Assembly (NCBI RefSeq): GCF_964204645.1
Contig: NC_134026.1
Span: 29,546,150 to 29,610,149 of the forward strand
Reading direction: 5' to 3'
Source of the DNA: Tubulanus polymorphus
Lineage: Eukaryota; Animalia; Nemertea
DNA: 64,000 nucleotides
Both the position numbers and the translations under genes were made by a program. Positions 1 through 57,447 of this stretch are shown here, one piece after another; positions within the stretch are counted from its first letter, which is position 1, and every line of letters starts with the position of its first letter. A model generated the notes under the pieces. That model saw only the letters and a list, made by a program, of their open reading frames with translations, had not been told where the DNA came from and did no database searches.

Positions 1-2939
1 GATGTTCGCTATACATCTGTGACACTATTTCAAAGATACATAAATATGGATGAAAACAAATTCTGACAGATGCAGAGAACGGAACCGATGATAAATCCTT
101 ACTGGACGGAGCGAGATTTTCACTGCCAACATCCAATTTCAAACGCTCTAACTGTTTTTCTTGTTCACGTAAAATTTCTTCGGCTTTTTCGCGTTTGAGT
201 TGTTCATACTGTGGTCTATATTCGCTAGACAAAGACAAGAAAACAAATATTGAACAATCGTGGTAAATCGCAATCAGGGTTCCTACCCATCGGCTATCCA
301 TGGATATAAGGAGTTTTCGGGGAAGTTTTACAGGAGAAAATTAAATATTTCTAGGAAGTGACTGCATCACTTTCATATTGAATTACTGTACTCCTTCTAA
401 ATCAATACTGCTTATTTTGATAAACCGTTAATTCGGTGGTTTTCTATAAAGAAATCTTTATCGTTTACACATCGAAACATGGTTTATAATTTGGTCACCG
501 CCTAATTGCATAAAGAATCGATTTAGTTGTAGTAGTTTACCATACAACTACAAACATTTCTAATTGCCTATTTCTCAAAAAAAGAGTTTTAAAGGAGTTT
601 TGGGTATTCTACTCTAAGTAAAGGAGTTAAGAGCTCAGAATAGAATGCATTTTCTGTTTGGCAGTAGTTTTTAAGGAATGAAGGAGTCGTAGGGAGCTTG
701 TCAATTCAAACAGAACGATTACGAAAAATACATACGTTTCATATTCGCGGGCGGCATCATCAATTGCTTGGAAAAATTCCGGCAAACCATCTCCCGTTAT
801 AGCTGAAACACCGACCGTCTAAAAGCATCACCACAAAACTTTCTTTATCATTTCTAGTCATTGATATGAACGTAATATATCATCCTGGGTCCTGTAGCTC
901 AAAAGTTGGTTAGAGTTTACCAGTGGATAGTTGATATAGTGACAATTGAAAGTTCATTGTTACGACGGTATTTGGTATTTATCCCCCGGTTAATATTGAA
1001 CCAACTTTTGAGCAACTGCCGCCCTGTGTTCGTGTATGAAATACTTACTCGGAGATTTTCATAGAATTCGTCAAGAACTAGACTCATCGAACGAGTTAAA
1101 TTTGATACGTATGACGTTTCATGTTGCAGCGCATCTTGAAACGCTTCGAAATCATTCATCCATTCAACAGCAAAACTATGATCAACGATATCAGTCTGTA
1201 AAATACAATAATCATCAAAATCTATAGGATTAAACTAGTAAATCTAAGAAGAGAATAGTCATGTCTCTAAAGCATGGCACACAAACTGGTAGGTCTCTTT
1301 CTCTTTTGTTTATCGCAAAATGATTAGCATTAAAAAATTGTTCTTTTCGATTATTACATTTGACACTGAAAAAAGTTCAATCTTACCTTATTTAAAACAA
1401 TAATAAAAGGCAATTTGGCTTTGTAAAGAATACTACAGGCGTATAACATATTCGACATGAAGGTGACTGGGTTAACACTTCGAGGCGTATCCATTACATA
1501 CACAATAACCGTCGGGAAGGTTGATGCCTGAACAAAAACACAGCAAAATCTAGTTAAATAACTATTACTAAACAAGACTTAATACACTCTTTATGGAAGC
1601 AAACGTTTGTTGATTTTCAACCTCACTTCTACATGAGTGAGAAGTGGCAATTCATTACCCGCCACATTCTTAAAACCAAGGATAACTGTGCACTTGATGA
1701 ATGGCTCCTAAATAGAACCAACGAATAATTCAATACTCACCAACGTTTCGGTGATAATGCTTCCAGAAGCTGACCACGTGAAAACTTCAATCTGTCCAGG
1801 GGTATCCAGTATAACATATCTGTATCACAATATGAAATCTGTTGTATCATCTATTGCATGGAATAGTACACTTAACAAAACAACTTACTTGCATTCGCGA
1901 GACCGCTTCTCCAGAAAACTCAAAACCTGATACCATATGAAACAAGAAAATCGTTAGAAAAAGAAAAACAAATTTTACAGTTAAAGTGAGTTTCACAGAT
2001 GCACGATTAAGAAAACCTGATCAAATCTTGTAGCGAATAAATTGAGAGATGTAACAATTCCTCCATTAGGTCCAAGTGAATATCTATTACAGGTTAAGAA
2101 ATGATAAAATGTATTGCTACATATTTGTAATATCTATTTCCAAAACAAGCAGCACATCCTGAAGGCTGCAATAGAAGCACAATCTTTAATGAGTTTTTGT
2201 TTGTTTTGATGAAAACTTAATATGCCAGGAGTACATAATTAAAAAAAACGTGGCTGTGATATTTTGACAATCATAGTTTTAATCCATCATTGACTGGTCT
2301 ATTTTGACAAGGATACTGTTTCATGACTTCTTTGTAATTAACAGTATCTCTTATATCTGAAAAAGAATAAAATTAATAAGAAAAAAGAGACAAATTTTGT
2401 CGCCAAACATACTAATATTAGGATCAAAAGTTATTGTATTCACCCAACATCAGGTAAACTGATGATTAAATACTGTGCATACCTACCAATATTAGCAGGA
2501 AATGGCACCTCGTGAACTGCTGGGTCTAAGTTGATGACATAAGGTGGAGTCTTCTTAGCATGAAGATGCGCAGTTAATCTCTGAATGTGAAAAAGTTTCA
2601 AAAAGCTGGTTTTCATAAAGATTCGGTGCTCCCTACTAGGAGTGCCGAATTAGCGAATGATGAAACCGACAGGATGTAGAGTAAGTACACTTCATTATCA
2701 TTATTGTCATGTACAGAAGGCCTACCACAAAATTCTTTAATTTTTACGGGATTAACTCTGTCTGGAGAGGAGACTGGAGTAGGCCTACTGACCTGAACGA
2801 AAGAAGTTTTCCCTGACCCAGCCATCCCCAAAACTATAAAACAGGTTGGCTTCGTTTTTGAAGAACTAGCAGTCGTTGAATCATCACTTTTTTCACAATC
2901 ATCTCCAGTCAGATTTTGGTTTTTCATGGAGGCCGCCAT
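1..2939 (-). CDS. GPN1: GPN-loop GTPase 1, multi-exon, 3' end outside the window
   Basis: ATG at 2939 (MAASMKNQ...). Exon 1 has the P-loop [17 protein letters not shown]. Later exons give [38 protein letters not shown] (GPN motif), [30 protein letters not shown] and DFEAFQDAL. Short GT-AG introns. Confidence 0.95.
885..1026. mobile_element. Small MITE in a GPN1 intron (PIF/Harbinger-like)
   Basis: Inverted ends ...GCTCAAAAGTTGGTT / AACCAACTTTTGAGC..., with CTG on both flanks. Related sequence near 15125-15230. Confidence 0.55.
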
Positions 2940-3206
2940 TATGAATACCAGTGGTCCGGATCCGGCGATTATTCCGGCGATTATTCCAGAGGAGCGATCC
3001 GCTTTTTTCTCCTTCCTGCGTTCGGGTGAGCATGTACGAAATCCCTGGTTGATATTCGAATTTTTGAAGTTTTCACAAGTTTTTCGGTTGTTCGGTGGTG
3101 TACCAGAACACCGTTTCAAGATGGCGGCTATGTAGAGGGCGCCATGGGACAATACAGTGAGAACAGGACCACCGCATACAACACGGGCCGAAAGCATCCG
3201 TAGCAA

Positions 3207-5205
3207 CACTGGTATCAGTAGTATCATCGGTCTCTGAGAGGATCGGACAGTATCACTGGTAACAGTGGTATCGGGGTAGCAGTAGTATCACCGGTCTCCA
3301 GAAGGATCGGGCAGTATCACTGGTAACAGTGGTATCGGGGTAGCAGTAGTATCACCGGTCTCCAGAAGGATCGGGCAGTATCACTGGTATCAGTGGTATC
3401 GGGGTAGCAGTAGTATCACCGGTCTCCAGAAGGATCGGACAGTATCACTGGTAACAGTGGTATCGGGGTATCAGTAGTATCACCGGTCTCCAGAAGGATC
3501 GGACAATATCACTGGTAACAGTGGTATCGGGGTATCAGTAGTATCACCGGTCTTGGAGAGGATCGGGCAGTATCACTGGTAACAGTGGTATCGGGGTATC
3601 AGTTGTATCACCGGTCTCTGGAAGGATCGGGCAGTATCACTGGTAACAGTGGTATTGGGGTATCAGTAGTATCACCGGTCTTGGAGAGGATCGGGCAGTA
3701 TCACTGGTAACAGTGGTATCGGGGTATCAGTAGTATCACCGGTCTCCGAGAGGATCGGGCAGTATCACTGGTATCAGTGGTATCGGGGTATCAGTAGTAT
3801 CACCGGTCTCGGAGAGGATCGGGCAGTATCACTGGTAACAGTGGTATCGGGGTAGCAGTAGTATCATCGGTCTCTGAGAGGATCGGACAGTATCACTGGT
3901 ATCAGTGGTATCGGGGTAGCAGTAGTATCACCGGTCTCCTGAAGGATCGGGCAGTATCACTGGTATCAGTGGTATCGGGGTAGCAGTAGTATCACCGGTC
4001 TCCGAGAGGATCGGACAGTATCACTGGTAACAGTGGTATCGGGGTAGCAGTAGTATCACCGGTCTCCGAGAGGATCGGGCAGTATCACTGGTAACAGTGG
4101 TATCGGGGTATCAGTAGTATCACCGGTCTCCGAGAGGATCGGGCAGTATCACTGGTATCAGTGGTATCGGGGTAGCAGTAGTATCACCGGTCTCCTGAAG
4201 GATCGGACAGTATCACTGGTAACAGTGGTATCGGGGTAGCAGTAGTATCACCGGTCTCCAGAAGGATCGGGCAGTATCACTGGTAACAGTGGTATCGGGG
4301 TAGCAGTAGTATCACCGGTCTCCAGAAGGATCGGACAGTATCACTGGTAACAGTGGTATCGGGGTATCAGTAGTATCACCGGTCTCGGAGAGGATCGGGC
4401 AGTATCACTGGTAACAGTGGTATCGGGGTATCAGTAGTATCACCGGTCTCCAGAAGGATCGGACAATATCACTGGTAACAGTGGTATCGGGGTATCAGTA
4501 GTATCACCGGTCTCGGAGAGGATCGGGCAGTATCACTGGTAACAGTGGTATCGGGGTAGCAGTAGTATCACCGGTCTCCTGAAGGATCGGACAGTATCAC
4601 TGGTAACAGTGGTATCGGGGTAGCAGTAGTATCACCGGTCTCGGAGAGGATCGGGCAGTATCACTGGTAACAGTGGTATCGGGGTAGCAGTAGTATCACC
4701 GGTCTCCTGAAGGATCGGACAGTATCACTGGTAACAGTGGTATCGGGGTAGCAGTAGTATCACCGGTCTCGGAGAGGATCGGGCAGTATCACTGGTAACA
4801 GTGGTATCGGGGTAGCAGTAGTATCACCGGTCTCCTGAAGGATCGGACAGTATCACTGGTAACAGTGGTATCGGGGTAGCAGTAGTATCACCGGTCTCTG
4901 AGAGGATCGGGCAGTATCACTGGTAACAGTGGTATCGGGGTAGCAGTAGTATCACCGGTCTCCAGAAGGATCGGGCAGTATCACTGGTAACAGTGGTATC
5001 GGGGTAGCAGTAGTATCATCGGTCTCTGAGAGGATCGGACAGTATCACTGGTATCAGTGGTATCGGGGTAGCAGTAGTATCACCGGTCTCCTGAAGGATC
5101 GGGCAGTATCACTGGTATCAGTGGTATTGGGGTAGCAGTAGTATCACCGGTCTGGGAGAGGATCGGGCAGTATCACTGGTAACAGTGGTATCGGGGTAGC
5201 AGTAG
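3207..5205 (+). repeat. Left arm array, about 31 copies of a 64-bp unit
   Basis: GATCGG recurs at 3241, 3305, 3369 and onward. Unit: CAGTATCACTGGTAACAGTGGTATCGGGGTAGCAGTAGTATCACCGGTCTCCAGAAGGATCGGG. Confidence 0.97.
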
Positions 5206-5435
5206 ACTTTTTTGCGCCGGACACGTTTGATTAAACCGATATTTCGTTATAAAAGATCTCGTTGTAGCGAGGTTTGACTAGTATTACAGTGGAATTTTTA
5301 TCGGTGGTACATGTATTTATTTTCCAGAGTTGCAAAATTTGGTTTCATTTTTTGGTGCGCCGTATCCACTGCCTGGTAATACTCTCTGTACTAAGTTTTT
5401 TTGACTTTGAATAGTACATAGCAGCTAAGGATCGG

Positions 5436-5574
5436 GGGCCAGTTGCACAGTTTGTGACTTAAGTCCAAAAGTGGTCTTAAATCTTAAGACTGGTCTCAAG
5501 TTGTTTGATTGGCTATAGAACTAAGTTGGTCTTAGACTGGTCTTAAGTTTAAGCCATAACTATGCAACTGGCCC
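5436..5574. mobile_element. Harbinger-like MITE nested in the foldback core
   Basis: TIRs GGGCCAGTTGCA / TGCAACTGGCCC. Flanks CGG / CTG resemble a CWG target duplication. Confidence 0.65.
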
Positions 5575-6437
5575 CTGGAAGATTTGTTGAAGGCGTATCA
5601 AATTATCTAACTTTATCGGGTAATCTCAAACTCAAGCGGGTACAGATCAGTCGTCAGGAAAGATATTCAAAAAAATATTCAACGCAGGCTTAAACTGCAA
5701 ATAACCCTCTTTAAACTCTGTAAAAATTGGAAATATAGCTTTAAGAGATACTTAGATATTTTGAAATTAATGAATGTTGCGATTTCTTTTACGCGCGGTT
5801 AAGATATGCGGTCCTTGGGGTCACATCGTCAGTGTTCTCAATTGTTGCGTTCAAAAATTCCAAGAAACGCCAGCAAATATCTGCATTTCGTTTCCTTAAA
5901 AATGGTGTATAAATTAATTTCGTCGAGCAAGGGACTGCAGAACTATATGATATTCAATCTAAACTTATGTTTTAAAAATGAGTGCAAATTATCGCAACAA
6001 TGGGGACCTCGAGGGACCGCCACAAAATGGCGCCTAGAAACTGGAAACTTCTTTATTTAAAAAAAATTAGTTAAGTCACAAGTCACTCACTAATTAGTGT
6101 TTCTCAATTTTAAACAGCCTAATTAAGTATATTGTAAACAAACATATGCATCAATAAACCAATATCAAGATTGCAGATTAAGACTATGGAGAATAAATCA
6201 TTGCTATTATGTACAATATATGATACAATAAAATGTAAAGTAAAATGTAAATGATACCTGAGAAATATAATCACCAATGAAGTCATACAACACAAAAATA
6301 TCAAAAGCATACAACGCAGTAATGTATCAGATCATCACAGTTTTTATAACATTGAATGAACTACCATTGACCACAACTCAGCCTTAGTAGCATTGGTATT
6401 GAAAATATTTCACCAATTGACTATCGGCTGTGTAAAT

Positions 6438-7182
6438 GAATGCGGGTCATAATACCTCCGCCCAAAATACCTCCACCCAAATATCCCACACCCAGAATCC
6501 CTCCACCCAGAATACCCTCATATGTGTCCAAAATACCTCCAGGCCCTAGATCTAATGGGTTTATGCCTGAAGGACAAAAATTTGAACCTATTAGAAATAT
6601 AATTTTTTAGAATGAATATTTTGTCCCCCCCCCCCCCAAGTTTTAATTTACAGGCAATACTCAAATAAACCAAAGTTCTATAGTTTAAAAGTAGTTAATT
6701 GAGCAAAACAAAGTATAATGTTAATTTCAGTGATCATAGTTGCACTTAAATGGAAATGAACTGAATTCAGTGTGTAAAGCGAAATGTAGTACATTGTTTT
6801 CTTAGATTATAGGACTAATAAATATTCTATAATCTAAATATTGAATAGTTCCCAGAGAAATCTAGCATAAGATTAAAGACATGAGATAAACTAATTAATA
6901 TTCCCAGCCAAAACTAATTGCAAGTGAACATTGTCATTAATTGTTATTCAATTATTATTCAGTAGGTTTATATATACCGTAATACATTATATATGATCCT
7001 ATACATGTATAATAGTCAATATTGGTGGTACTTTAAACATCTAAATAATATAATTATAGTATTTTTTTTAAATTCTGGGTGGAGGTATTTTGGACACATA
7101 TGAGGGTATTCTGGGTGGAGGGATTCTGGGTGTGGGATTTTGGACGGAGGCATTTTGGGCGGAGGTATTATGGGCGTATCCC
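6438..7182. mobile_element. 745-bp non-autonomous TIR element with repeat-built TIRs (MULE-like)
   Basis: About 100-bp inverted ends (CATAATACCTCCGCCCAAAA... / ...TTTTGGGCGGAGGTATTATG) made of ~15-bp subrepeats. 8-bp TSD GTGTAAAT at 6430-6437 and 7183-7190. Confidence 0.85.
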
Positions 7183-7489
7183 GTGTAAATAGAAGGTCCA
7201 TCAAAATACCTATTTGTAAAATTCAACAACTTAAGTGTCATACTAAGTTGACCAGCACTGAGTAAGGCGGACGCAACTGTACACATATGGATGAAGAGTA
7301 TAATTTGGTAACAGGTAAAAATCCCTCCTAGGTAAAAAAAACCCCAAAATCCCCCCAAATTTGATTTCACAGCAAAAGTCAATGAAATACTGTAATATTC
7401 TTTAGTTGAAAAACTTTAATAGTTTTGCAAAAATTTCCAATTTTCCCTGGTGTTTTTCACAATCACCTCGGATAATCTGTGTCTTTTAC

Positions 7490-8180
7490 CGTGCAGTAAA
7501 AATCCCCTTGGTAAAAATCCCCAATTCTTCAAAGTAGGTAAAAATCCCCCTCCTTCTGAATGTAGTTTAAGTAGATACAATCTTAAGGTCAATTAATTCA
7601 TATTTACCGGTATTTCATATTTATGATACACATATCCTATTTATTATTGTGGAACATCATAAGGATATCATGAGTATACAAACTATTGCATATACTACTT
7701 GAATTCAAACATGCTACAAATCAAAAATTCATTAATACTAAATTAGTACTCAAAAGTTATCACACAGCTTAATGAAAGGGTTCTTAGCACTTGTCAAATA
7801 TATTACACTAGTTTGAAACTAAAATATCTAGAATTAAAAGTTCGTTATTGCTCATAATTCATTGCATCGCGCAGCTCAAATATACCACAAGTTAACAAGA
7901 GTTCACAGGTCAAAGATATTCCGGTTCGAATTTAAAGGTATTACAAATAAAAGTGTATTATTCTTATTAATTCTAACAATTTATTGAAATCTAAGAGTTT
8001 ACTTAAGAATTTATCACAACGAAAGATTTCATTGCACAGTCCAAACATATTTCAGTCTCATCGCAAATTAATAAAATTGGAGTATCATTTTGCTTTGAAA
8101 TGGTCTTGAAAATCACCAAGTGGGGATTTTTACCTACTTTGAATATTTGGGGATTTCTACCTAGAAGTTTTTTACCATAG
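7490..8180. mobile_element. TIR element built of GGTAAAAATCCCC subrepeats; a partial second copy lies at ~9660-9972
   Basis: CAAAGTAGGTAAAAATCCCC near 7530 is inverted near 8122-8141 (GGGGATTTTTACCTACTTTG). 7530-7866 recurs, diverged, at 9716-9972. Ends and TSD not resolved. Confidence 0.6.
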
Positions 8181-8274
8181 TGTACACATGATTGTATGCT
8201 GTTCTACTGGACTTGGAGTACTCGCGGCTATACTTATTATTATTCCAAGACTGGACGCAAGTCGTGCTTTCGAC

Positions 8275-8932
8275 GGGTCCATACCTATGTTCCTCGGGTC
8301 CTATGTTCCCCCAAGGGAGATTAAACATAAAAGGGGTTCTATATTCCCCGGATCCGATATTCCTGGAAGATTATGGAAAATGTATAAAAAGGTCCTTTGT
8401 TCCCATGGCCACATACACTCAATTTCGGCGCCGGGAATTCAGAGCATGATAACGCGTCAGGCTGCCAATTAGTTGATGTTGAAAATCGGCACTACATGTA
8501 TCTTTATCTTTATCTTTATTCTATTAAATGAAAATTAACGACATGAATCACAATTAAAAATCTCCCGGGCAAGTTTCAAAGCCTTTTTACAGTGTGACGT
8601 AACTACTGAATAAATTACCTGATCGATCGATTAATTGTCATCTCGAATTTCTCTCGTTAAGTTCTGGCGTTTGCAAAAAATAAAAGCACCTTGTCTGTAT
8701 CAAATTTATAGTATCTAGCAAATACATGACATGATTGATGGACTATTATTAAAAAGCATAGGTATGGACACCGGTCAACGTTTTTATTATTTGGAGAATA
8801 TATGGAACCCTCGTTGTATTATTTCCTTTGGGAGAATATAGAACCCGGGGAATATAGGACCCGGGGAACATGGAACCCGGGGAATATAGGGCCCGGGGAA
8901 CATAGAACCTGGGGAATCTAGGGATGACCCCC
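8275..8932. mobile_element. 658-bp non-autonomous TIR element with 17-bp subrepeats (MULE-like)
   Basis: Left end GGGTCCATACCTATGTTCCTCGGGTCC; right end (GGGGAATATAGGACCC-like)n...GGATGACCCCC. 8-bp TSD CTTTCGAC at 8267-8274 and 8933-8940. Confidence 0.85.
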
Positions 8933-9357
8933 CTTTCGACCGTATTCATTACTCATTACTTTTCAAATCATTACTGAAACGAAGAAAATTTTAATTGATT
9001 TTTATTTCATATGGAAATATGCCGGTTACATGAAACCGGAATTTTTCATTGGATTAAAACAAGGGCCGGGGCTTATTTCTTCTTTGTTTTTCACCGCTTG
9101 CATCGATAGCTTACATAGTTTTGGTAGTCACATAGCCAGATCTTGGAGCGTTAAAATATGCAGGTGGTTTAATTTTACTTGAGCCCATTACAGGATCGAT
9201 AATTCAAATGTAGAACATTTGCGAACAATTTGCGGAAGCGTGTAATATTTCATTTTAAAGAAGTAAATCACATTTTGCATTTTCCTGGATACGTCCTCGT
9301 CAAGTTTTATTACTATTATATTTTCATCACTTGAATTAATTATTTTGTTTTGTAATA

Positions 9358-9448
9358 CAGTCAACCCCCGATATACCATCCACATCGGTGAAGAAAATTT
9401 TGACGGTATAGAGAGTATGACGGTATATATCGTGGGTATTTTACTATG
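9358..9448. mobile_element. Tc1/pogo-like MITE
   Basis: TA|CAGTCAACCCCCGATATA ... TATATCGTGGGTATTTTACTATG|TA, with degenerate TIRs and TA flanks. Confidence 0.55.
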
Positions 9449-9971
9449 TATTTGTTAAGAGATGTACATTGCCCACAATTTAAATTTTTCATCAAATTTC
9501 GCAAATATCTGCTCAGGGTAAAGAAACGTTCTGTTAATTCTGCTGTTCGCGGTAATCTGGGACAGTTCCCTCTACTTATAATTTTCTTGCCACTTATGGT
9601 CAAATAGTGGCTGTGCATCTGTAAAATAGACAGTTCGACGATGGTATATAAAGCGGCTAGTGGTAAAAATCCTCAGGGTTAAATTCCCCTAAAATCCAAA
9701 AATTCCTAAATTCCTCAAAGTAGGTAAAAATCGCCCTCCTTCTGAATTTAGTGTAAGTAGATACAATCTTAAGGTCAATTAATTCATATTTATGATACAT
9801 ATATCTAATTTATTATTGTGGAACATCTTAAGGATATCATGATCATACAAACTTTGAATTAAAACATTACTACAAATTAACACAGTTCATCGCACATTTC
9901 AAATATACTACACTAGCTTGAATCTTAAATATCTAGAATTAAAAGTTCACTATTGCTTATAACTTCATGGC

Positions 9972-12592
9972 ATACTGCCCGATCCTCTCCCAGACCGGTG
10001 ATCCTACTGCTACCCCAATACCACTGATACCAGTGATACTGTCCGATCCGTCAGGAGACCGGTGATACTACTGCTACCCCGATACCACTGTTACCAGTGA
10101 TACTGTCCGATCCTTCTGGAGACCGGTGATACTACTGATACCCCGATACCACTGATACCAGTGATACTGCCCGATCCTTCTGGAGACCGGTGATACTACT
10201 GCTACCCCGATACCACTGTTACCAGTGATACTGCCCGATCCTTCTGGAGACCGGTGATACTACTGCTACCCCGATACCACTGTTACCAGTGATACTGTCC
10301 GATCCTCTCCGAGACCGGTGATACTACTGCTACCCCGATACCACTGATACCAGTGATACTGCCCGATCCTTCAGGAGACCGGTGATACTACTGCTACCCC
10401 GATACCACTGTTACCAGTGATACTGTCCGATCCTTCTGGAGACCGGTGATACTACTGCTATCCCGAAACCACTGTTACTAGTGATACTGTCCGATCCTTC
10501 AGGAGACCGGTGATACTACTGCTACCCCGATACCACTGATACCAGTGATACTGCCTGATCCTCTCCGAGACCGGTGATACTACTGCTACCCCGATACCAC
10601 TGTTACCAGTGATACTGTCCGATCCTTCAGGAGACCGGTGTTACTACTGCTACCCCGATACCACTGATACCAGTGATACTGCCCGATCCTCTCCGAGACC
10701 GGTGATACTACTGCTACCCCGATACCACTGTTACCAGTGATACTGTCCGATCCTTCAGGAGACCGGTGATACTACTGCTACCCCGATACCACTGTTACCA
10801 GTGATACTGCCCGATCCTTCTGGAGACCGGTGATACTACTGCTACCCCAATACCACTGATACCAGTGATACTGCCCGATCCTTCAGGAGACCGGTGATAC
10901 TACTGCTACCCCGATACCACTGTTACCAGTGATACTGTCCGATCCTTCTGGAGACCGGTGATACTACTGCTACCCCAATACCACTGATACCAGTGATACT
11001 GCCCGATCCTTCAGGAGACCGATGATACTACTGCTACCCCGATACCACTGTTACCAGTGATACTGTCCGATCCTCTCAGAGACCGATGATACTACTGCTA
11101 CCCCGATACCACTGTTACCAGTGATACTGTCCGATCCTCTCCGAGACCGGTGATACTACTGCTACCCCGATACCACTGATACCAGTGATACTGCCCGATC
11201 CTTCAGGAGACCGGTGATACTACTGCTACCCCAATACCACTGATACCAGTGATACTGCCCGATCCTTCAGGAGACCGATGATACTACTGCTACCCCGATA
11301 CCACTGTTACCAGTGATACTGTCCGATTCTCTCAGAGACCGATGATACTACTGCTACCCCGATACCACTGTTACCAGTGATACTGTCCGATCCTCTCCGA
11401 GACCGGTGATACTACTGCTACCCCGATACCACTGATACCAGTGATACTGCCCGATCCTTCTGGAGACCGGTGATACTACTGCTACCCCGATACCACTGAT
11501 ACCAGTGATACTGCCCGATCCTTCTGGAGACCGGTGATACTACTGCTACCCCGATACCACTGTTACCAGTGATACTGCCCGATCCTTCTGGAGACCGGTG
11601 ATACTACTGCTACCCCTATACCACTGTTACCAGTGATACTGTCCGATCCTCTCCGAGACCGGTGATACTACTGCTACCCCGATACCACTGATACCAGTGA
11701 TACTGCCCGATCCTTCAGGAGACCGGTGATACTACTGCTACCCCGATACCACTGTTACCAGTGATACTGTCCGATCCTTCTGGAGACCGGTGATACTACT
11801 GCTACCCCGATACCACTGTTACCAGTGATACTGTCCGATCCTTCTGGAGACCGGTGATACTACTGCTACCCCGATACCACTGATACCAGTGATACTGCCC
11901 GATCCTTCAGGAGACCGATGATACTACTGCTACCCCGATACCACTGTTACCAGTGATACTGTCCGATCCTCTCCGAGACCGGTGATACTACTGCTACCCC
12001 GATACCACTGATACCAGTGATACTGTCCGATCCTTCTGGAGACCGGTGATATACTGCTACCCCGATAGCACTGATACCAGTGATACTGCCCGATCCTTCT
12101 GGAGACCGGTGATATACTGCTACCCCGATAGCACTGATACCAGTGATACTGCCCGATCCTTCTGGAGACCGGTGATACTACTGCTACCCCGATACCACTG
12201 TTACCAGTGTTACTGCTCGATCCTTCTGGAGACCGGTGATACTACTGATACCCCGATACCACTGTTACCAGTGATACTGTCCGATCCTCTCGGAGACCGG
12301 TGATACTACTGCTACCCCGATACCACTGATACCAGTGATACTGTCCGATCCTTCAGGAGACCGGTGATACTACTGCTACCCCGATACCACTGTTACCAGT
12401 GATACTGCCCGATCCTCTCCGAGACCGGTGATACTACTGCTACCCCGATACCACTGTTACCAGTGATACTGTCCGATCCTCTCCGAGACCGGTGATACTA
12501 GTGATTCCACGATACCACTGATACCAGCGATACTGTCTGATCCTCTCCGAGACCGGTGATACTACTGATACCCCGATACCACTGATACCAGT
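9972..12592 (-). repeat. Right arm array, about 41 copies of the same 64-bp unit, inverted
   Basis: Reverse complement of the left-arm unit (…GATACTGCCCGATCCTTCTGGAGACCGGTGATACTACTGCTACCCCGATACCACTGTTACCAGT…), period 64. Confidence 0.97.
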
Positions 12593-13319
12593 ATTGCTAC
12601 GGATGCTTTCGGCCCGTGTTGTATGCGGTGGTAATGTCCTGTTCTCACTGTATTGTCCCATGGCGCCCTCTACATAGCCGCCATCTTGAAACGGTGTTCT
12701 GGTACACCACTGACTAACCAGTTTTTCTGGGTTTTTTTTTTAGGCCATATAGGTACGTAGGCATTTTTATGTACGTATGCTTTTTGTAAGTTCTAATTGT
12801 ACAGTTGTGTAAAATGTTTGATAAGTTGCCAAATTATATGTAATCATACACTTTAGATTATTTATCTCCGGACGGGCGCTTACACATCTCATCAATTCCT
12901 TAAAGATAGACTGTGGACCCGTCTTATTACTAGGCCTACTACTTCACTATATTGTCTATTTCAACTTTGGGGTAACTTAGTTCAACCCCATTTAATGAAG
13001 ATTTTTTGTAACCCTTCGATACAGTGTAAAATTGGATTGCCAGTTCAAGTTCTGCCAGTTTGATTCTGGTTGTCCTGACCCAATCACCTGAATGAATCGT
13101 TCAGGGGGCTGGTATCTGTAGCACTCCCCTAGACTCTTGAAACCTTGTTAAGTTTTAACAAAAATAAGTAAAAGATTAAGAATCAAACCATTTGCATTGT
13201 TTCATTGTCTGTCATAGAATTTCGGTATTTTCAAGGTGGTGACACTGGCAACAGCATCGACTCGCTTCCTACTTCATCGAGGAGAAAATATTAACACAAA
13301 TTAGACTGACACCGATACA

Positions 13320-16300
13320 ATGGACAAATATCATGTGCTGGACCTTATTGGAGAAGGTTCTTTTGGACGTGTTTACAAAGGTCGAAAGAAATTAAGTGGA
13401 CAGGTAAATAAATAGATAAAGTCAACTCAGTTAAAGTCGTCATTGGATGTGTCGTCACAATCATCTCTATTTTTGAGTCCCAATTCAACAGTTGGAGAAT
13501 TAGTAGATTCAATAAAAGTAACTCGTAATATGGATGAGAAATAGAATTAATGGTCATCTCAACTACGATAAAGCTACAATAGTGAATTAGTAGCATACAC
13601 ACACCTCTGTACATCTATTTTAAATACATTATACCTGAGGCTCTATGGCGTTTAAGCCCACAGTGGAAATAAACAATTAATTAGAATATAAGAATTTACA
13701 CCGATGGGTATGACAGTATCGCATTTAGAATATATTGAGGGTGTATGCGGCACCATGTGAGTTTAGTTTAAGTTGGCGTGATTTTATGGTCCAAAAAAGA
13801 ATAATGATGGGTTGTAGTTAATTTACTGATGAATGATCATGAATTGTGGAAGATAAATTATGATGCTCCTCTAGCCAATGCTTAAATATCTTTTGGTTTT
13901 TCCAATAAAAGTTAAGTTTGTATCATGAAAACATGAGAATTTATAGACAATTACAATGACTTGCAAGTTTTTAGATGTATTATGTTTGAAAGTTGATATC
14001 TACAATGATCCGTTGTTTGTATTGTTTGTATTTCATACACAGGTTGTTGCTTTGAAATTCATTGCTAAAACCGGACGTTCGGAAAAAGATCTGAAAAACT
14101 TACGTCGCGAAATCGAGATAATGCAAGGTCTACATAATGATAATATCATTCAAATGTTGGATAGTTTCGAGACGGATAAAGAAGTGGTAGCTGTGACTGA
14201 TTACGCTGAGGGTGAATTGTTTCAAATACTTGAAGATGATGGCAGTTTACCCGAGGAACAGGTATCACATCATTCATTCTGCCGCCTGTACCCACCATAA
14301 CCTAAAATATTCACTATTTGACCGGTGAAGTCTAGAAGATCTGATTTTAATATTTCTTAACTTTGGGTGTCATCAGGTGGCCACCCTTTTTATTTGTACA
14401 TCTCCCCTCAGCCACTACCTGTTAAAATATCTGCTGCCCCTCTACACATTAAGTTGATGTCAATGAGCAATTTCTATTGATGAGTTCATCCCTGAGTAGG
14501 ATGGTGATGGCAGCAGATTCAGCATAATTATGTACTGTTTTCTTTTTTTAGAAAACCCCCAAACCACTAGCAAAGCTTGCATCCACAATGTTACTTGATA
14601 GTGAATGTGGCCCCTCTTAAAATTCTTAAAATATGGACAATTCAATTATATTATGATAGACAGAGGTGTATGGTCATCCCTATTACGTACGGTATTACGA
14701 GTTATTAGCGAATGTACTGTGTATTTATTGTATAGGTTCAAGCGATCGCGTGTCAACTCGTATCAGCGTTATATTATTTACACAGTCATCGAATTCTACA
14801 TCGAGATATGAAACCTCAGAATATATTACTTGGTAAAGGAGGAGTCGTAAAACTGTGTGATTTCGGTTTCGCGCGCTCTATGAGTATGAATACATTAGTT
14901 CTTACTTCTATCAAGGTAAATTACGATCGTTCTCATTCTTTCAATACAAATGAATTCGCATCAATTCTGATATTTATTTTGTTAATTACAATTCGTTTTA
15001 GGGAACGCCGTTGTATATGTCGCCTGAACTGGTTGAAGAACAACCGTATGATCATACAGCAGATCTCTGGTAGATATGTTAAAATTCTTTTAAAATATTC
15101 TTCATCAACTCAAGGGATCTGGATTGAGTTGCTCAAAAGTTGATTAAAGATAGCCATCACTTTAGATACCGCCGTAAAGAACTTTTAATTGTCAATGTCA
15201 ATTACCCACAGCTGCGACTAACTTTTAAGCATACGACATAAACTGACCCCAATTGTTGAAGAGTTGGTTCAAGTTAACCATCAAAAAGATACTATAGTGT
15301 CAATGCAATTATAGTTGTTACTATGTCAGTTATTTCCACAGGTTGCAATAACTGGCGGCCCTTAGTGTTTTGTAATGTTTTATGATTGTGATCCTTGATT
15401 CCTTTTCAATATTTACTACTTTTATTACATTGTATTAAGGAATGTGTTAAAACCCATTTATTTCTAGGGCTCTCGGTTGTATTCTGTACGAGTTGTTTAC
15501 CGGAACGCCACCATTTTACACGAATAGTATATTTCAATTGGTCAGTTTGATCATCAAAGATCCTGTTAAATGGCCCAAAAATATGTCTCCAGTTTTCAAA
15601 GATTTTCTGCAAGGATTGTTAACGAAAAACCCAAGAAATCGTTTACAGTGGCCCGACCTTTATCAACATCAGTTTGTAGCAGATGGAGTTAAAGGTATTT
15701 AGAATTTTGCGATAATCAAATTTCGTGTGAAAGCAAAAGGTTTTCTTAACTTTTTTGATTAAAGTTTCTGAGGAAGATAAGAATTTGTTGAGTCCATTTA
15801 CGACACCTCCGACAGCATCAGTTGTATTAGCTAAAGAAAAACAAACTAAAGAGAAAGCTCATCCTCCCGGAACATCGAAAATTCTTAGCAAAGCAAGACG
15901 TAAAGCCGCAGAGGAAGATGCTAAAAGGGTATGTAGTAACACGCCTTACTTCTGAGTTAGAATAAAGCTTGAAATTTTTTCAAATATTCGATGGTTTAAA
16001 AAATCTTTTTAAAGACAAAAACAAGAAAAGTTGAATCGGCTGGAAAAGAACGAAATGATGAGAAACAACATCCAGCAACAACAGCAGCAGCAGCGGCAGT
16101 AGCAGTAGTGCCCCCTCAGCCACAATCCGAGAAAGTGACGACTGATTGGACTAAAACTGGTGTCAGTCAGGTAGGATTTTATCATTCTAGAATTCAATCA
16201 GTAGATCTCGTGGTTGATAGGTGTAAATTGTATGTTTATATATTGCTATGTATTTGTATAGGCTGTAAACCCGACCCCGCGTCCTGATAGAATCAGTAAA

Positions 16301-19300
16301 GACTACGCACAGGAATGTCCGAGCATCGAAATAGAAAGTAGGAAAGTCATAAAAAAATCTTCAAAAGACCATCAGAAAACTATCGAGAATGTGAAGTTAG
16401 ACGGTGAGGTAGGTTTATTGGGTTTCTTTCAATTTCAGATGAAATTCTGTTTAGAACATGTAAACAAGGTCCCTACAACTCCTTGATTCCTCAATAACTC
16501 CTTCTAAACAGAAAATGCTTTTAGGTGCTTGAAACTCTAACTTTACGGTAATTTGAGCAGAATATCAGAAATTCCTTTAAAACTTCAATTTTGAGAAATA
16601 GGAATTGGAAATGTTTGGAGTTGCACAGTACTCTATGCCTAAGTCGGTATAGTTGGTACCAGGATTTTTTTTACCCAATAAGGCAGTATTAGAAACTGAG
16701 ATTAGGTAGTGTAAAGGATAAAAATTAATTTGCTTACAAAACCACTGAATTACCGCGTTACCAAGATAAACAGTACTGATTCAGGAGGAGTCTCTTATGA
16801 TTCGGATATGAAAGTGATGCAGACCCGAAATATGAAATTTTGTGCTTGAAAACTCAAGGTGGTTAAGTGTTTAGTTGTGTTTGTTGTTTGAAGGATGTTG
16901 ATTCAGATGATGAATGGCAGGGTTACGTAGATCTGACCGACGTAGCGAATGAACCTGATCCATCAATGGCTTTAATGGACGATCAGAAATTTGTTAATCG
17001 TCTCCAAACTCGTTTGAATAAAGTATCGGCGCAGGTTCTTGAAGGGATGCTAGATGGCGCTTCGAAACTGCGTCCAATGTCGAAAATCATCACTAATCTT
17101 ATAACGCTAAAATGGTGGGTATTCTAGTGCATTAAACTCTGCCTTATTTGGTTAGTGCAGAGACTAAATATTTCACTTGAGAGTTGAGAACTGTCGGAAT
17201 AGACGGTTCAGAGTGAAATTCAGTAGATTACAAATTAATTGGTCATACCGAATAAGGTGGAGTCAACTGTTGTAAATATAGTTTGCAATAAGCTTTTATA
17301 AGATATGTGTCATGAAACATCTGATAATGAAACTTAACTCAGATTACTGACTGTACCAAACACATGCTGGTAATAAATAATCTCTTTATAGCGATCTCAA
17401 TATTTTGACTAAGTTCATGAAGTGTATTGATATTCCTGGTCTACCATACCGTCTACTCAGCCAAATACTCGATAGCGCCAAGGTTAAACAGGTAAATGTT
17501 TAAATAAATCTGGTGATTTATTGAAACTAAGCAACTTTGATATACTGTTTTGATTTACAATCACTGATCATTATTTCACAGCAACCGTGGTGTCAACAGA
17601 TCCTACTCGACCAAGTCATAACTTTAAACGCTTATTTCGCCAGTGAAATAGTATGGAATGAAAGCGCTGATAAAGCGTGGTAAAAGAAATGGAAATATAT
17701 CTTCATATAAACACTGAGTGGTGCTTGGTTTGTATCATGATTGAATCTCTTATTATTTCAGTCTGCAGGCGTATTATGACATGGCTATAAAGTTTTTACA
17801 GCTATGTCCTAAACTGCTTGGCCAGAAATTAGATGAGGATTTGAAACTCCAGGAGCAAACGATACTCGTGAGTTTTCACACAACAATTACTAGAGCTACA
17901 GTTGTGTTCAATTTCATCGCATGAATTGTATGATATTTTGTCGTTTTAGTGTATAATATATCTATGTGAGACGCTAGAAAGAAGTCATTCTCGATCAGAT
18001 ACAGCGAATAAATTCTTCAGTTCAATCGCTTCAAAAGCAGGAAATGCGTTAGAAGCGATTTTGAATTGTACAATGGCTGACAGTTCAAAACTGAAAAAAC
18101 TGGAAGGTAAACATTATATTGTTGTACAGTACTCTGCCTTATTCAGCAGCATTGGGACTGCTATACCTAACAGAGTTGAGAATCGAGGAAATAGAAAATG
18201 AATTTGAGTAAAATTCACTGAATTTCCCGGGTAACTAAGTAAGGCAGAGTTGACTGTTTTATTCATTGCTATCGAGTGATGTTTTCCTGCTATTTATCAT
18301 AGAATTTCAATTACTGTTTGTTTGCAGAAATAGCGGGTAATTCAGAGCTGGCGAACAACAGATTGAATGACATGACATCTCTAGCAATCGCGGGCCTCGC
18401 ATCATTGTGTCACTTCCCGCATGAGGCTGATATTGGTTTACAAGGTAAACGCAAGGTGGCGCTCTATGTGGGTGAATTACTCAGCGAGAAACGCTTGTTG
18501 AAAATCACGGATTGCTATCTGAATCTGATCAGTAGAGAGGATACGTGTAGTTCGGTATTAAAGGTCGTCTATTCCGCTTGTCAGATGTCAAGTAAATTCT
18601 GTCAATTCATCTGCAATAAACGAGAAATCATGCAGAAGATCATTGATATTCTGCTCGGGAAGGTGAGTTATCGAATAGTGCGTTGATCAGTCAAAAATCA
18701 CAGATATTATTTGACTTATTGCTGTATTTGATATTCTTTCTAGTTGGAGATCGCTGATATGGAATTGAATACAATACTAGAGATGGTTCTTCATATACTC
18801 AGTACTGTAGTTGTACAATTACAACTGGTCCCTACAGTGTAAGGACTGAATTCATGAACACCCAGTGAAATAAACCAAAAATACCCAAAAATTACAGCTC
18901 AGTCAGTGTTTTTATTTGATTTTTTGTAGGCTCGCTGAAAATGCCGGATTGATAGTTTCAATATTCCTGGAATCGCAGATCGCTAGTCACACAGTAAGAT
19001 ACATGAATCTAAAATTTGAATCTGAAACAAACAGCAATCGGTTTGACTTAACTACTATTTGTTTTTATAGGCTGCGTCAGCTTTGTTATTTAGTCAACTG
19101 ATTTATTGCGGTTGCGCGGTTGAAGTTCAACCAGAGGAAATGTTGATGGCTGCATTATCAAGTTTTACTGATTTAACCCAGGTATGCGCTCATATAGTAC
19201 TTAAATACAACATGTTATCAGCGAATATTGAACTTTTTTACCGGTGATTTGTATTTTATAGATTCTTGTACGTTGTCCATTTGACTATGGAATATTTGAT

Positions 19301-22300: not shown

Positions 22301-22557
22301 TCATTCCCAGGAAAAACCTGGTAGTTATCAAGTTTGGTATATGAGGGGTTGACTGTATGTCTCTGGTATCTTCACGCCTTTTGTTGGTTTGCTTGTAGGC
22401 ATTAAACCGAATTGGAGCTCAGGATAAATTATCGCAACTTGTCCATACGTCAACTCCACGTCCATCCACTGGAGGGAGCCACCGTTCAGTTTCGGCATCT
22501 GCTATACCACAACACTGTGGACGTCTTATTCAACAACTGAAAGCCATTCGAACTTAA
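13320..22557 (+). CDS. STK36: Serine/threonine kinase 36 (Fused), multi-exon: N-terminal kinase plus C-terminal HEAT/ARM-like helical region
   Basis: [80 protein letters not shown]-terminal exons such as [16 protein letters not shown]. Stop TAA at 22555-22557. Confidence 0.95.
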
Positions 22558-23329: not shown

Positions 23330-23850
23330 GAAAACTACCGGATAATATGGGCTTAATTCCTTTTAGAAAGATATCCACAAGAAAACTACAACAACCGGAT
23401 AATATGGGCTTAATTCCTTTTTGAAAGATATCCACAAGAAAACTACAACAACCGGATAATATGGGCTTAATTCCTTTTAGATAGATATCCACAAGAAAAC
23501 TACAACAACCGGATAATATGGGCTTAATTCCTTTTTGAAAGATATCCACAAGAAAACTACAACAACCGGATAATATGGGCTTAATTCCTTTTAGATAGAT
23601 ATCCACAAGAAAACTACAACAACCGGATAATATGGGCTTAATTTCTTTTAGAAAGATATCCACAAGAAAACTACAACAACCGGATAATATGGGCTTAATT
23701 CCTTTTTGAAAGATATCCACAAGAAACTACAACAACCGGATAATATGGGCTTAATTCCTTTTAGAAAGATATCCACAAGAAAACTACAACAACCGGATAA
23801 TATGGGCTTAATTCCTTTTAGAAAGATATCCACAAGAAAACTACAACAAT
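23330..23850. repeat. Minisatellite, about 9 copies of a 57-bp unit
   Basis: GATAATATGG at 23341, 23398 and onward. Unit: AGAAAACTACAACAACCGGATAATATGGGCTTAATTCCTTTTAGAAAGATATCCACA. Confidence 0.95.
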
Positions 23851-45360: not shown

Positions 45361-45600
45361 TTCGACGGTATTTCGACACGGCGCTGCACTTTGACAGCGC
45401 CACCTACGGTTCACTCCAGACGGTGGGCTCTAAAATGTGGATTTGGTCTTCACGGATGACAATTCAATTCAAAAATTTATTTCATCCGTATAACGACAAA
45501 ATTACATAGGACAGACACGGCAATAAAATATTAATACAAAGAGACACTGACAAATGATAACATAACATAAAAGGAGAGAAAGAAAAAAAAAAAAAAATTT

Positions 45601-45786
45601 CCTCTGTGAAGCTGGCTCCCGGTTCCCGGTTCCTTATTCGGCTCCCGATTCAAAATGCTTTTGAACCGGGAGCCGAATCGGGAACCGGGAACCGGGAGCC
45701 GGCTACTGGTTCAGCTCCCGATTCAAAAACATTTTGAATCGGGAGTCGAATCGGGAACCGGGAACCGGGAGCCAGCTTCACAGGGG
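45601..45786. mobile_element. Palindromic mini-element upstream of UBE2L3
   Basis: TIR CCTCTGTGAAGCTGGCTCCCGGTTCCCGGTTCC / GGAACCGGGAACCGGGAGCCAGCTTCACAGGGG with 7-bp subrepeats. Flanks AAAAAAATTT / TAAAAAATTT suggest a 9-10-bp TSD. Confidence 0.75.
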
Positions 45787-46393
45787 TAAAAAATTTACGA
45801 GCTATTTACAAAGAACCCCACTCCCCGCCGGTCGCTTTTTAAACTTGAAAATACAATCTACAGTGCATAGGTCAAACTGTTATTTCAAACGACGATGCCT
45901 ACCTCAACCCAGACTCAGGAGGATATCGAGTGGCAGCCAAAACCGATCGGGCAAGGCCACCCGATATACACCCAAGTCACAGTGAAGCAGATGACAGTCA
46001 CCCTAGGGAAAATGTGATTGTCTATCGAATCGAGCAGTTAGGCTTGGGCCGCCCTTGGTTCAACCATGGATTGTGAAACGAACTCCATGGTTCAATATTC
46101 AACGTGTAATTGTGATTGTCTGTAGCCGGTAGTTTTTTTTTCAATTTTGCTCCGAGTCACGGCAGTATTCAATAAAGTGTTCGAATCGAAGAGCGAGCGC
46201 TTGATTTTATCACAAAACAAAAAAAAAATATTTAAATGGCGTTTAACCATGGTCGATCGCAACGAACCGAAAAAAAGCAACAAAGAATAAAACAAAAACA
46301 CTTAGTTTCATTTATTTCATAGTTTCATATTTTTTCTATAAAAGGTTATAAAATTCTAACTAGATGCAGGTTTTTCTTGCACATCCGGCCGGT

Positions 46394-49083: not shown

Positions 49084-50183
49084 TGTAAATGCTATATTGG
49101 TCAGAACCCCGATCCTGCCGCTTATGGGCCTACCGCGTTGTGTTTACACAGTGAATCGTTATGCGGCGTGCACGGGCCACATCGGCGATTTATGAATAGT
49201 AATAGGCTACGCTTTATAAGCGCAAAGGAATTAGCTTTACCATCGATGTTGTTTAAACTAAGAAAATGTTGTGAATCTTGTCTTATTTGGTGATTAGACT
49301 TAAAGCATTAACTAGATTGTCGACGATAGAGCGACCGGCCAGGGACCGGGGGGGCCTTGGCGACAATGAGATCTTGTTCTGCATTTGAAATGGCCGCCGA
49401 TTTTTTGGGTTGTGCGATGTGACGGCTACTAAAACTATTGCTAAACGAATTCCGTTTCTATATTTAATTGTCATATGCGCGTTGCGTTGCAGGGGACTGT
49501 TTGAACGATCCCGCTTGACGAAACTGGTTCGGTCCGTGCAGTAGTCCGGTTGCCAAATCCGAGGTGTGAGAGAAGAGAAGTTGTCCTAGATGTTTATTAG
49601 CCTTAAAAAGCAGATCCAACCTCAAATATCGGATGATTCAATTCTCACCAACGACATTATTCATAGCGGGTAAATGTCCGACGGAAATTGATGGTAAACT
49701 TATGTGGTGTCATAGAATAGGCTGGGTGCAAACTTTTAAAAACGAATGACACTATCAATAATATCACTAAGTAAATTCACAAAGCAGTTTCACTTCCGGG
49801 TTGATTCATTCACTCGGACCTGAATCATGAATGATTTAAAAGTCCTTTCTTTTTTCAAATGATAGAGCGTTTATTTCTGAGAGTCAAATATCGTGGGTGT
49901 TGTATAAAACTTAACATAGTTATTTACTCATAACCTTTAATATGATTGTAAGTCATTGTTGTACTTATTGTTGAAGAATCAAGTTGTATGATATTTTCTG
50001 TTCACGACACAACTTACTAGCAGTTACTCATTTCAAGTTAACGATTAGGTCATTCACTACTTATGACCATGACTGAACTGTTGTAATTAAATTTTCAGGT
50101 ATGATCAATTCATACAGTCTTACATGAAGAACCATGCGACAGATCACTTATGATAAGTTCAAGATAATCAGCAAAACTTGAAT

Positions 50184-56953: not shown

Positions 56954-57447
56954 CATGGGTTCCAGATCACTTAATACCCGAATCTGGAACTCGTTCTGGG
57001 GCTCGTTCTGGGACAACGGCCACGTTTTGCACTTTATTTCCTTACGACTTTCAAAGTGTCGCCGTATCAATAAAAAACATGTTAGAAGTTAAAGTTTACG
57101 TTTATTTGATATAATTTAATTCTATATGTTGTGGTAACATTGATGGATAATGTACTAACGCATGCTAAAAAATATATAAATGACATGTTTGATCAAGTTT
57201 CATGTTTGTAAGTTTCTCGCAGTGTTGTATTGGTTTTAACTGTTGCGCTGTAATTGGATGCTGGAGTGACCGGGATGCGGTAAGATTCTGCTGCAGGGAA
57301 TTCGCTACCTCCCTGTTGCACATCGCGTAGCGCGCAACAGGATAACAGATATCAACAGTTGACAATTTCAGTCGAGAAAAGCTTGCAACAATTTACAGAC
57401 GGAAGCTTTCATCTTTTCTAGAAAAATTATTTTGATAGTGATAGAAA

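What the first reader, a model, noticed from the sequence alone, without database searches (positions are those of the whole stretch)
3086..12719. Intact 9.6-kb foldback element with multi-kb mirror-image satellite arms and an 8-bp TSD
Seen: unique outer TIRs, inverted 64-bp arrays of unequal copy number (~31 vs ~41), G...C termini, a perfect AGTTTTTC duplication and no transposase ORF inside. Known: Drosophila FB, sea urchin TU and Mutator-superfamily Phantom elements have modular, repeat-built TIRs and long TSDs. Inference: a fairly recent non-autonomous insertion of a possibly undescribed family that mobilises a satellite-like unit and can form a stem of about 2 kb.
Basis: partly seen in the sequence, partly recalled or inferred. 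Interest (0 to 1): 0.78.

Follow-up and report, generated by a model that had tools for sequence, protein, structure and literature searches.

The report
Cargo-carrying foldback transposon between two genes
A 9.6-kb gene-less piece of DNA with long inverted repeat arms sits between two back-to-back genes of a ribbon worm; it is likely one of about a dozen recently spread copies of a jumping element and likely present on only one of the two chromosome copies, a tidy new example of a known kind.

Summary
The structure is confirmed: ~121-nt outer inverted repeats, inverted 64-bp arrays of 31 and 41 units, GG...CC ends, an exact 8-bp duplication, and no transposase found. One correction: the arms share a pool of unit variants but are not mirror images unit by unit. 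Public contigs add three things. The ends join other flanks elsewhere in the genome. The whole 4.8-kb interior, a patchwork of other transposons, lies at about 6 times single-copy depth with 0-1 substitutions per contig, so roughly 11-13 near-identical copies likely spread recently as one unit. The flank contig breaks exactly at the duplication and the junction has 46% of flank depth, so the insertion is likely heterozygous; the empty allele's letters were not shown. The element sits in a 738-nt head-to-head gap between GPN1 and STK36, possibly inside a 76-nt STK36 leader intron (untested). Best reading: a non-autonomous foldback transposon moved in trans, likely by a Mutator-type transposase; Merlin is the main rival; no partner enzyme was found. 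The build is known (Tetris, Rehavkus, Tm1, Muta1 derivatives, Ssk-FB4), and this scan has noted such elements in at least 4 other genomes. New member of a known kind.

The parts
3078..3085 (.). left copy of 8-bp target-site duplication
   Evidence: flank contig of run X1 ends exactly at 3085
3086..3210 (+). left unique outer inverted repeat, starts GGTT
   Evidence: high depth and other flanks joining at 3085/3086
3211..5205 (+). left array, 31 units of 64 bp
5206..9971 (.). 4,766-nt non-coding interior, a patchwork of other repeats, multi-copy as a unit
   Evidence: all 30 of 30 bins at depth 202 or more in run X1 vs 35.5 for the flank; no transposase, no Rfam match
5435..5576 (.). passenger: palindromic MITE, very high copy (Harbinger-like ends, label from recall)
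   Evidence: summed depth 6e4 to 1e5; ends
5620..6057 (.). passenger: left-truncated high-copy repeat whose natural end is at 6057
   Evidence: 25 contigs with diverse loose ends behind 6057 and 4 continuing before 5620
6438..7182 (.). passenger A: 745-nt element with 8-bp duplication GTGTAAAT, asymmetric first 11 nt, 15-bp subterminal repeats (Phantom/Muta-like build)
7496..8175 (.). passenger B: inverted-repeat element; a 69%-identical second copy at about 9660-9971 is cut off by the right arm
8275..8931 (.). passenger C: element with 9-bp duplication (one mismatch) and 16-bp subterminal repeats
9972..12592 (-). right array, 41 units of 64 bp, inverted
   Evidence: inner junction bridged by a contig of run X3 covering 9761-10011
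12594..12719 (-). right unique outer inverted repeat, with 5-nt insert and different first 9 nt
   Evidence: both features recur on other copies
12720..12727 (.). right copy of 8-bp target-site duplication
2793..2939 (-). first coding exon of GPN1, start codon 146 nt from the left end
   Evidence: best PDB match GPN-loop GTPase 1, E 2.6e-4; ATP_bind_1 on a later exon; spliced contig in run X5
13320..13406 (+). first coding exon of STK36/fused, start codon 593 nt after the right duplication
   Evidence: P0001 (STK36-like) residues 1-29 match at 100%
3026..12743 (+). candidate STK36 leader intron (donor at 3026, acceptor ending 12743; 76 nt without the element); untested
   Evidence: motif scan only; STK36 has introns of about 70-91 nt

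Best explanation
This is a gene-less foldback element with an exact 8-bp insertion scar, likely one of about a dozen near-identical copies that were recently cut and pasted as a 9.6-kb unit by a transposase supplied from elsewhere in the genome, likely of the Mutator (MULE) type. Shown: the anatomy, the scar, other flanks on the same ends, the multi-copy and nearly invariant interior. Inferred steps: (1) the transposase binds the outer ~120 nt and probably motifs in the 64-bp units, as Muta1 does with its subterminal repeats; (2) it excises the whole unit and inserts it with an 8-nt staggered cut; (3) the arms change length and unit order by slippage and unequal exchange between arms and copies, which keeps one shared variant pool while the innermost units are spared; (4) the original middle was replaced or overwritten by repeat-rich DNA (template switching and/or nested insertion plus deletion) before the recent burst, so the passenger transposons now ride along; (5) this copy landed in the 738-nt gap between GPN1 and STK36 on one homologue and is still polymorphic.
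For: Scar and ends. Family: summed depth over the first 60 nt of the end is 2,100-3,000 vs 35.5 for the flank; loose ends with other flanks at 3085, 3086, 3091, 3095, 3096; three terminal variants all starting GGTT; a contig identical to 83 nt of the left end at depth 349. Interior: the 8 X1 contigs listed (2,563 nt in all) carry 0-1 substitutions each at depth 201-240, i.e. 5.7-6.8 times the flank or 11-13.5 haploid copies; they run across passenger borders (8128-8772 crosses 8275; 8743-8986 crosses 8931); the interior is also in a second sample (runs X2-X4). A joint 7564-9167 with a 6-nt microhomology occurs in 3 of 3 runs of that sample and 0 of 1 of the other, as for an internal deletion derivative. 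Heterozygosity: flank contig ends exactly at 3085, junction contig 3056-3111 has depth 16.3 (0.46 of flank), and about 21 further depth units starting near 3056 are unaccounted for. Arms: mean differences per unit 4.20 within left, 4.59 within right, 4.54 between (p 0.058); one variant occurs only in the innermost unit of each arm. For MULE: 8-11-bp duplications and long TIRs (PMC6446971); all 14 Aedes MULE families have 8-9-bp duplications, 10 with subterminal repeats, and derivatives carry mixed interiors (PMC5225508); asymmetric termini outside the inverted repeat are a Mutator trait (Tm1, PMC3169594); repeats raise binding and excision (PMC5499845); passengers A and C show that MULE-like builds with 8-9-bp scars exist in this genome.
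Against: No transposase linked to these ends was found, and no genome was available to look. Only one scar was read. Depth of contigs is a rough copy measure, contigs drop rare variants, and short-read contigs cannot link other copies' interiors to their ends across the arrays. The junction contig has 30 and 26 letters on its two sides, under the tool's 31-letter bridging rule; the empty allele's loose end was not among the rows shown (20 cut); the left inner and right outer junctions were not seen bridged. Run X1 holds 99% of the flank words and may be the assembly's own sample. The ends lack Muta1's palindromic terminal motif, and GG ends with an 8-bp scar also define Merlin. A single-scar allele could be a precise excision rather than a pre-insertion site (about 90% precise for Muta1). 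No donor locus for the interior was seen, so capture is not shown.
Confidence: 0.62

Rival explanations
1. Same element and history, but mobilised by a Merlin (IS1016-related) transposase.
For: Merlin is defined by terminal 5'-GG and 8- or 9-bp duplications, both met here; Merlin families with internal tandem repeats and highly imperfect TIRs are described (PMC8101967 passages). All terminal variants seen start with GG.
Against: Described Merlin TIRs are 24-462 bp, not 2.1-2.7 kb; most foldbacks are said to belong to Mutator (PMC4079207). No Merlin note turned up for this genome among 23 noted windows, a weak negative.
Confidence: 0.2
2. Same element, but mobilised by another superfamily with long scars (hAT, or P/Galileo-type).
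For: The foldback build arose in several superfamilies; Galileo is P-type. hAT makes 8-bp scars (recalled).
Against: Galileo copies are bounded by 7-bp scars; hAT and P ends typically start CA or TA and hAT TIRs are short (recalled), whereas these start GG.
Confidence: 0.08
3. The ends are a real transposon, but the multi-copy interior reflects a tandem or segmental duplication, and this locus is a composite of two nearby ends rather than a unit that has jumped repeatedly.
For: Contigs cannot link interiors to ends across the arrays; the exact left-type end is deeper (349) than the interior (201-240), so ends and interior are not one-to-one.
Against: The exact scar around the whole 9.6 kb, the single-copy flank and the half-depth junction indicate that the whole unit arrived here in one step; the right array-interior junction is also in a second sample at interior-like depth.
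Confidence: 0.08
4. The inverted arrangement is an assembly artefact.
For: No long read or contig spans the element; two of four junctions were not seen bridged.
Against: Exact scar, non-identical arms with different unit order, no N, junction words at the left outer border and a bridging contig at the right inner border.
Confidence: 0.02

Closest known systems
Tetris of Drosophila virilis (PMC4079207; parts 1-2 of 6 of the text and passages read)
   Same: Unique outer domain, tandem-repeat domain of variable copy number, non-coding middle, 8-9-bp scars in complete copies, no transposase found, assigned to Mutator by scar length.
   Different: Tetris TIRs are at most 1,735 bp with ~220-bp AT-rich units and an inner TIR domain, and only three complete copies with variable middles; here arms are 2.1 and 2.7 kb of 64-bp, 52% GC units, no inner TIR domain, and one middle is shared by about a dozen near-identical copies.
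Rehavkus elements of Tribolium (PMC12581902 passages; PMC6446971 passages)
   Same: Inverted termini made of a TIR plus many subterminal tandem repeats; up to 50 repeats in Rehavkus-3_TC and arms over 11 kb for TfSat06, so the arm length here is no record.
   Different: Rehavkus is listed with 9-bp scars and from arthropods and annelids; this copy has 8 bp and is from a ribbon worm; no sequence comparison was possible.
Muta1 and its non-autonomous derivatives, Aedes aegypti (PMC5225508, PMC5499845; passages)
   Same: GG start, 8-9-bp scars, unequal repeat numbers at the two ends, mixed captured interiors, some multi-copy, insertion near genes; gives the tested mechanism for the repeats.
   Different: Muta1 TIRs are 145 bp with 12-bp repeats and a palindromic terminal decamer, which is absent here.
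Tm1 / Phantom-type Mutator foldbacks (PMC3169594 passages; Marquez and Pritham 2010 not held, seen only as cited)
   Same: Composite TIRs with asymmetric terminal motifs outside the perfect inverted repeat; 8-10-bp scars.
   Different: Tm1 elements are about 1 kb with ~14-bp motifs and mostly 9-bp scars, and are thought inactive.
Ssk-FB4 multicopy Pack-TIR of Drosophila melanogaster (PMC8277862; section 9 and passages)
   Same: A foldback with repetitive arms took up foreign DNA and then spread as a polymorphic multicopy unit.
   Different: Ssk-FB4 carries a host gene with a known parent; here the load is other transposons, no gene and no parent locus were found.
Merlin superfamily (PMC8101967 passages)
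   Same: Terminal GG, 8-bp scar, tandem repeats and imperfect TIRs occur.
   Different: Described TIRs are 24-462 bp; no Merlin transposase is linked to these ends.

Membership tests
Foldback elements (structural class) | Long inverted arms containing tandem repeats of variable number | tested here: met
Foldback elements (structural class) | Target-site duplication and dispersed copies with other flanks | tested here: met
   (scars of other copies not read)
Foldback elements (structural class) | Inner TIR domain beyond the tandem repeats (optional in Tetris scheme) | tested here: not met
   no inverted match between the two ends of the interior
Mutator/MULE | 8-11-bp target-site duplication | tested here: met
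   8 bp, one copy; range
Mutator/MULE | Long TIRs, often with asymmetric extreme ends (sub-TIR) | tested here: met
   3 mismatches in first 9 nt; terminal variants recur on other copies
Mutator/MULE | Partner element with the same ends encoding a MULE DDE transposase | not testable with these tools
   no genome held; none inside
Muta1 family | 10-bp palindromic terminal motif and 12-bp subterminal repeats | tested here: not met
   neither terminal decamer is palindromic; period is 64 with a 9-bp sub-period
Rehavkus | 9-bp target-site duplication | tested here: not met
   8 bp in this copy
Rehavkus | Transposase with PHD finger | not testable with these tools
   no autonomous copy available
Merlin | Terminal 5'-GG and 8-9-bp duplication | tested here: met
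Merlin | TIR length 24-462 bp | tested here: inconclusive
   outer unique part ~121 nt fits; whole arms of 2.1-2.7 kb do not
Merlin | DDE_Tnp_IS1595 transposase in a partner with the same ends | not testable with these tools
   no genome held
Galileo (P superfamily) | 7-bp target-site duplication | tested here: not met
   7-bp test false, 8-bp true
Multicopy Pack-TIR | Same interior in several copies | tested here: met
   depth 5.7-6.8 times flank with 0-1 substitutions per listed contig; by depth only
Multicopy Pack-TIR | Identifiable non-transposon parent locus for the interior | tested here: inconclusive
   no continuation of unique interior into a donor locus among the rows shown; 317 loose-end rows were cut

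The most novel reading that the evidence does not exclude
A currently active 9.6-kb foldback is spreading a fixed load of at least six other transposon pieces as passengers, and this heterozygous copy sits inside a 76-nt leader intron of STK36, 16 nt from the splice acceptor and 146 nt from the GPN1 start codon, so every transcript of that allele would fold into a 2-kb RNA duplex: a ready-made, within-animal test of how foldback arms silence, edit or mis-splice a host gene at a shared promoter.
Probability: 0.25. Interest if true: 0.5.

Novelty: new member of a known kind. Interest (0 to 1): 0.3.

Why it matters
Modestly. It extends the satellite-armed foldback build to ribbon worms and shows a likely young burst, which makes the missing transposase findable: such a partner has not been found for Tetris. 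Near-identical interiors with reshuffled arms would let one measure how fast tandem arms turn over. A likely heterozygous 9.6-kb insertion at the shared start of GPN1 and STK36 allows an allele-specific test of gene disturbance within one animal. None of this changes what is known about how such elements are built or move.

Tried and rejected
No whole genome is held, so copies and scars could not be collected. Exact-pattern scans for the end and for the unit found 0 matches in metagenome contigs and 0 in viral contigs. Earlier-findings look-ups by sequence, near this place and one by words were blank. No RNA holder was listed by the run search; run X5 proved to hold a spliced GPN1 contig but it stops at 2926 and says nothing about the leader. 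Run X6 (another organism) matched only short low-identity pieces. Rfam: 0 matches in 2900-13400. Pfam on 28 of 70 interior frames: no transposase. Unit-by-unit mirror symmetry: rejected. Origin of the unit from the outer repeat: weak, 67 of 1000 shuffles score as well. Internal copies of the terminal motif in the arms: none at 13 of 18 matches. Folding: two units fold better than shuffles on one strand (z -2.75) but not the other (z -1.25), outer repeat z -1.21; not taken as evidence. Dating by left-right divergence of the outer repeats: rejected, since the differences recur on other copies. A recalled Merlin end motif could not be found in the library and was not used. Uneven depth in runs X2-X4 was not used for copy number. 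A homologue search for the 495-aa frame at 51697 found nothing. Not in print: 'Tubulanus' with 'transposon' gave 0 papers; 'GPN1' with 'STK36' one unrelated paper; two searches listed no ribbon-worm foldback by title or abstract start; Repbase and Dfam could not be searched and no supplements were read, so the family may be catalogued there.
Full report
Observation. The element runs from 3086 to 12719 (9,634 nt). AGTTTTTC flanks it exactly on both sides and no other length from 4 to 13 gives a direct repeat. The outer inverted repeat is 93.7% identical over 126 columns, with 3 mismatches in the first 9 nt, a 5-nt indel and one more substitution. Inward lie 64-bp arrays of 31.2 and 41.0 copies in opposite orientation, which pair at up to 94.7% over 1,995 nt. 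Neither the unit nor the end recurs elsewhere in the window or in the interior (best E 0.81). Of 70 interior frames of 35 aa or more I scanned 28, mostly the longer ones, with Pfam: three weak hits below cut-off, no transposase. Rfam gave nothing.

The arms. They are not mirror images unit by unit. Both draw on one pool of variants (mean differences per unit 4.20 within left, 4.59 within right, 4.54 between; permutation p 0.058; 7 unit types shared, of 19 and 24), but a unit-level alignment costs 109 against 114.1 +/- 3.9 for shuffled order. The exception is the inner edge: one variant occurs in only 2 of 72 units, the innermost of each arm. I infer that the arms descend from one TIR, turn over by slippage and unequal exchange, and end near their ancestral inner border, the right one 32 nt shorter in phase.

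Host and site. A protein record labelled STK36-like of the ribbon worm Tubulanus polymorphus is 100% identical to the 73-aa exon queried and maps from its first residue at 13320 to its last at 22554. On the other strand the first coding exon of GPN1 starts at 2939 and a spliced contig confirms two of its introns. Without the element the two start codons are 738 nt apart; with it, 10,380. On the plus strand the only donor-like site in 2900-3085 is at 3026 and a strong acceptor ends at 12743; without the element these would bound a 76-nt intron, and STK36 has several introns of about 70-91 nt. That the element lies in an STK36 leader intron is a motif-based guess; no RNA crosses the site.

Family and zygosity. 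Six runs hold part of 1-3210, five of the same organism; all are contigs, and X1 may be the assembly's own sample. Laid on 2311-3210 (4 of the 6 runs), X1 shows the flank as one contig at depth 35.5 that ends exactly at 3085, the last letter shared by a filled and an empty site. The junction contig (3056-3111) has depth 16.3, 46% of the flank, and about 21 more depth units from near 3056 are unexplained. No substitution is listed at 3086. The simplest reading is a second allele without the element. Limits: that allele's loose end was not among the rows shown (20 cut), the junction contig falls short of the tool's 31-letter bridging rule, and a single-scar allele can also come from precise excision. 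Over the end, summed depth reaches 2,100-3,000, other flanks join at or near 3086, the right-type terminus and the 5-nt indel recur on other copies, a third terminus type exists, and a sister family shares only the first ~46 nt. So the left-right asymmetry is a family trait, not a clock.

The interior. Laid on 5166-10011 (X1-X4), no bin of 30 falls below depth 202 in X1. The eight X1 contigs listed, 2,563 nt in all, have 0-1 substitutions each (two have a gap, of 2 and 10 nt) at depth 201-240, that is 11-13.5 haploid copies if the flank is 2. They cross the borders of passenger elements, so the patchwork is what was multiplied. The tool warns that depth is no strict copy number and that contigs drop rare variants. 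A second sample holds the interior too; one of its contigs bridges the right array-interior junction, and all 3 of its runs show a joint 7564-9167 with a 6-nt microhomology, absent from X1, likely a deletion derivative. The patchwork includes a very high-copy palindromic MITE, a truncated high-copy repeat ending at 6057, element A with an 8-bp scar and asymmetric first 11 nt, element B and a truncated second copy, element C with a 9-bp scar, and pieces resembling Tc1/mariner MITE ends (label recalled). The right inner border cuts through element B's second copy and neither border shows microhomology to the next array letters. Capture by template switching and nested insertion followed by deletion both fit; no donor locus was seen.

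Mechanism. Most likely a transposase made elsewhere binds the ends, probably helped by the repeats, and moves the whole unit. For Muta1 this is shown: more subterminal repeats give more binding and excision (PMC5499845 passages), scars are 8 or 9 bp, and derivatives carry mixed interiors (PMC5225508 passages). Asymmetric extreme ends are a Mutator trait (PMC3169594 passages). But terminal GG with an 8-bp scar also defines Merlin, where tandem repeats and imperfect TIRs are known (PMC8101967 passages). Without the partner I give Mutator about 0.62, Merlin 0.2, other superfamilies 0.08; that it is a transposed unit at all, about 0.9. An unreviewed note of this scan reports a complete Mutator element elsewhere in this genome; whether its ends match is unknown.

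Comparison and novelty. Tetris (PMC4079207, parts 1-2 of 6 and passages) has the same plan. Rehavkus elements reach 50 repeats per arm and related arms exceed 11 kb (PMC12581902 passages). Ssk-FB4 is a foldback that took up foreign DNA and spread as a polymorphic unit (PMC8277862 section 9). Galileo differs in its 7-bp scar (PMC3573991 passages). A review notes that natural Pack-MULEs are mostly 1-2 kb and that transposition drops above about 6 kb of cargo (PMC6431247 passages), so a 9.6-kb unit spreading is large but not unprecedented. This scan has noted seven findings of the same build in at least four other genomes. The sequence family seems undescribed in the searchable literature, but Repbase, Dfam and supplements were not seen. 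Verdict: real, a new member of a known kind, interest 0.3.

Noticed in passing
window 50157-54291 (+): Gene with two very large exons (378 and 495 aa frames) carrying a Dynamin_N GTPase domain (E 5e-21) followed by kinase-like exons; resembles DSTYK (recalled). The 495-aa frame found no homologue at E 0.001 among proteins of 272-867 aa and no Pfam family, so it may be a very divergent member.
   Followed up: partly
window 45598-45789: 192-nt palindromic element with internal 73-bp repeats, a small foldback-like MITE.
   Followed up: no
window 23333-23849: 57-bp tandem repeat, 9.1 copies at 96% match, open on the minus strand for 181 codons; just downstream of STK36.
   Followed up: no
window 324-701 and 16464-16854: Two inverted copies (69%) of a ~390-nt repeat, one in a GPN1 intron and one in an STK36 intron.
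   Followed up: no
window 3086-3131: A more abundant sister family shares only the first ~46 nt of the end and then diverges (loose ends behind 3131 in runs X1 and X2); a good place to look for the autonomous partner.
   Followed up: no
window 3085/3086: Most flanks seen on other copies end in C or T just before the terminal GG, a hint of target preference from very few sites.
   Followed up: no
window 3117-3128: The outer repeat holds a YY1-like motif (label recalled; position), placed next to the GPN1/STK36 promoter at the left end.
   Followed up: no
window 55862-56953 (+) and 57445-57870 (+): Single-exon rhodopsin-family GPCR and an LHFPL-family exon.
   Followed up: partly
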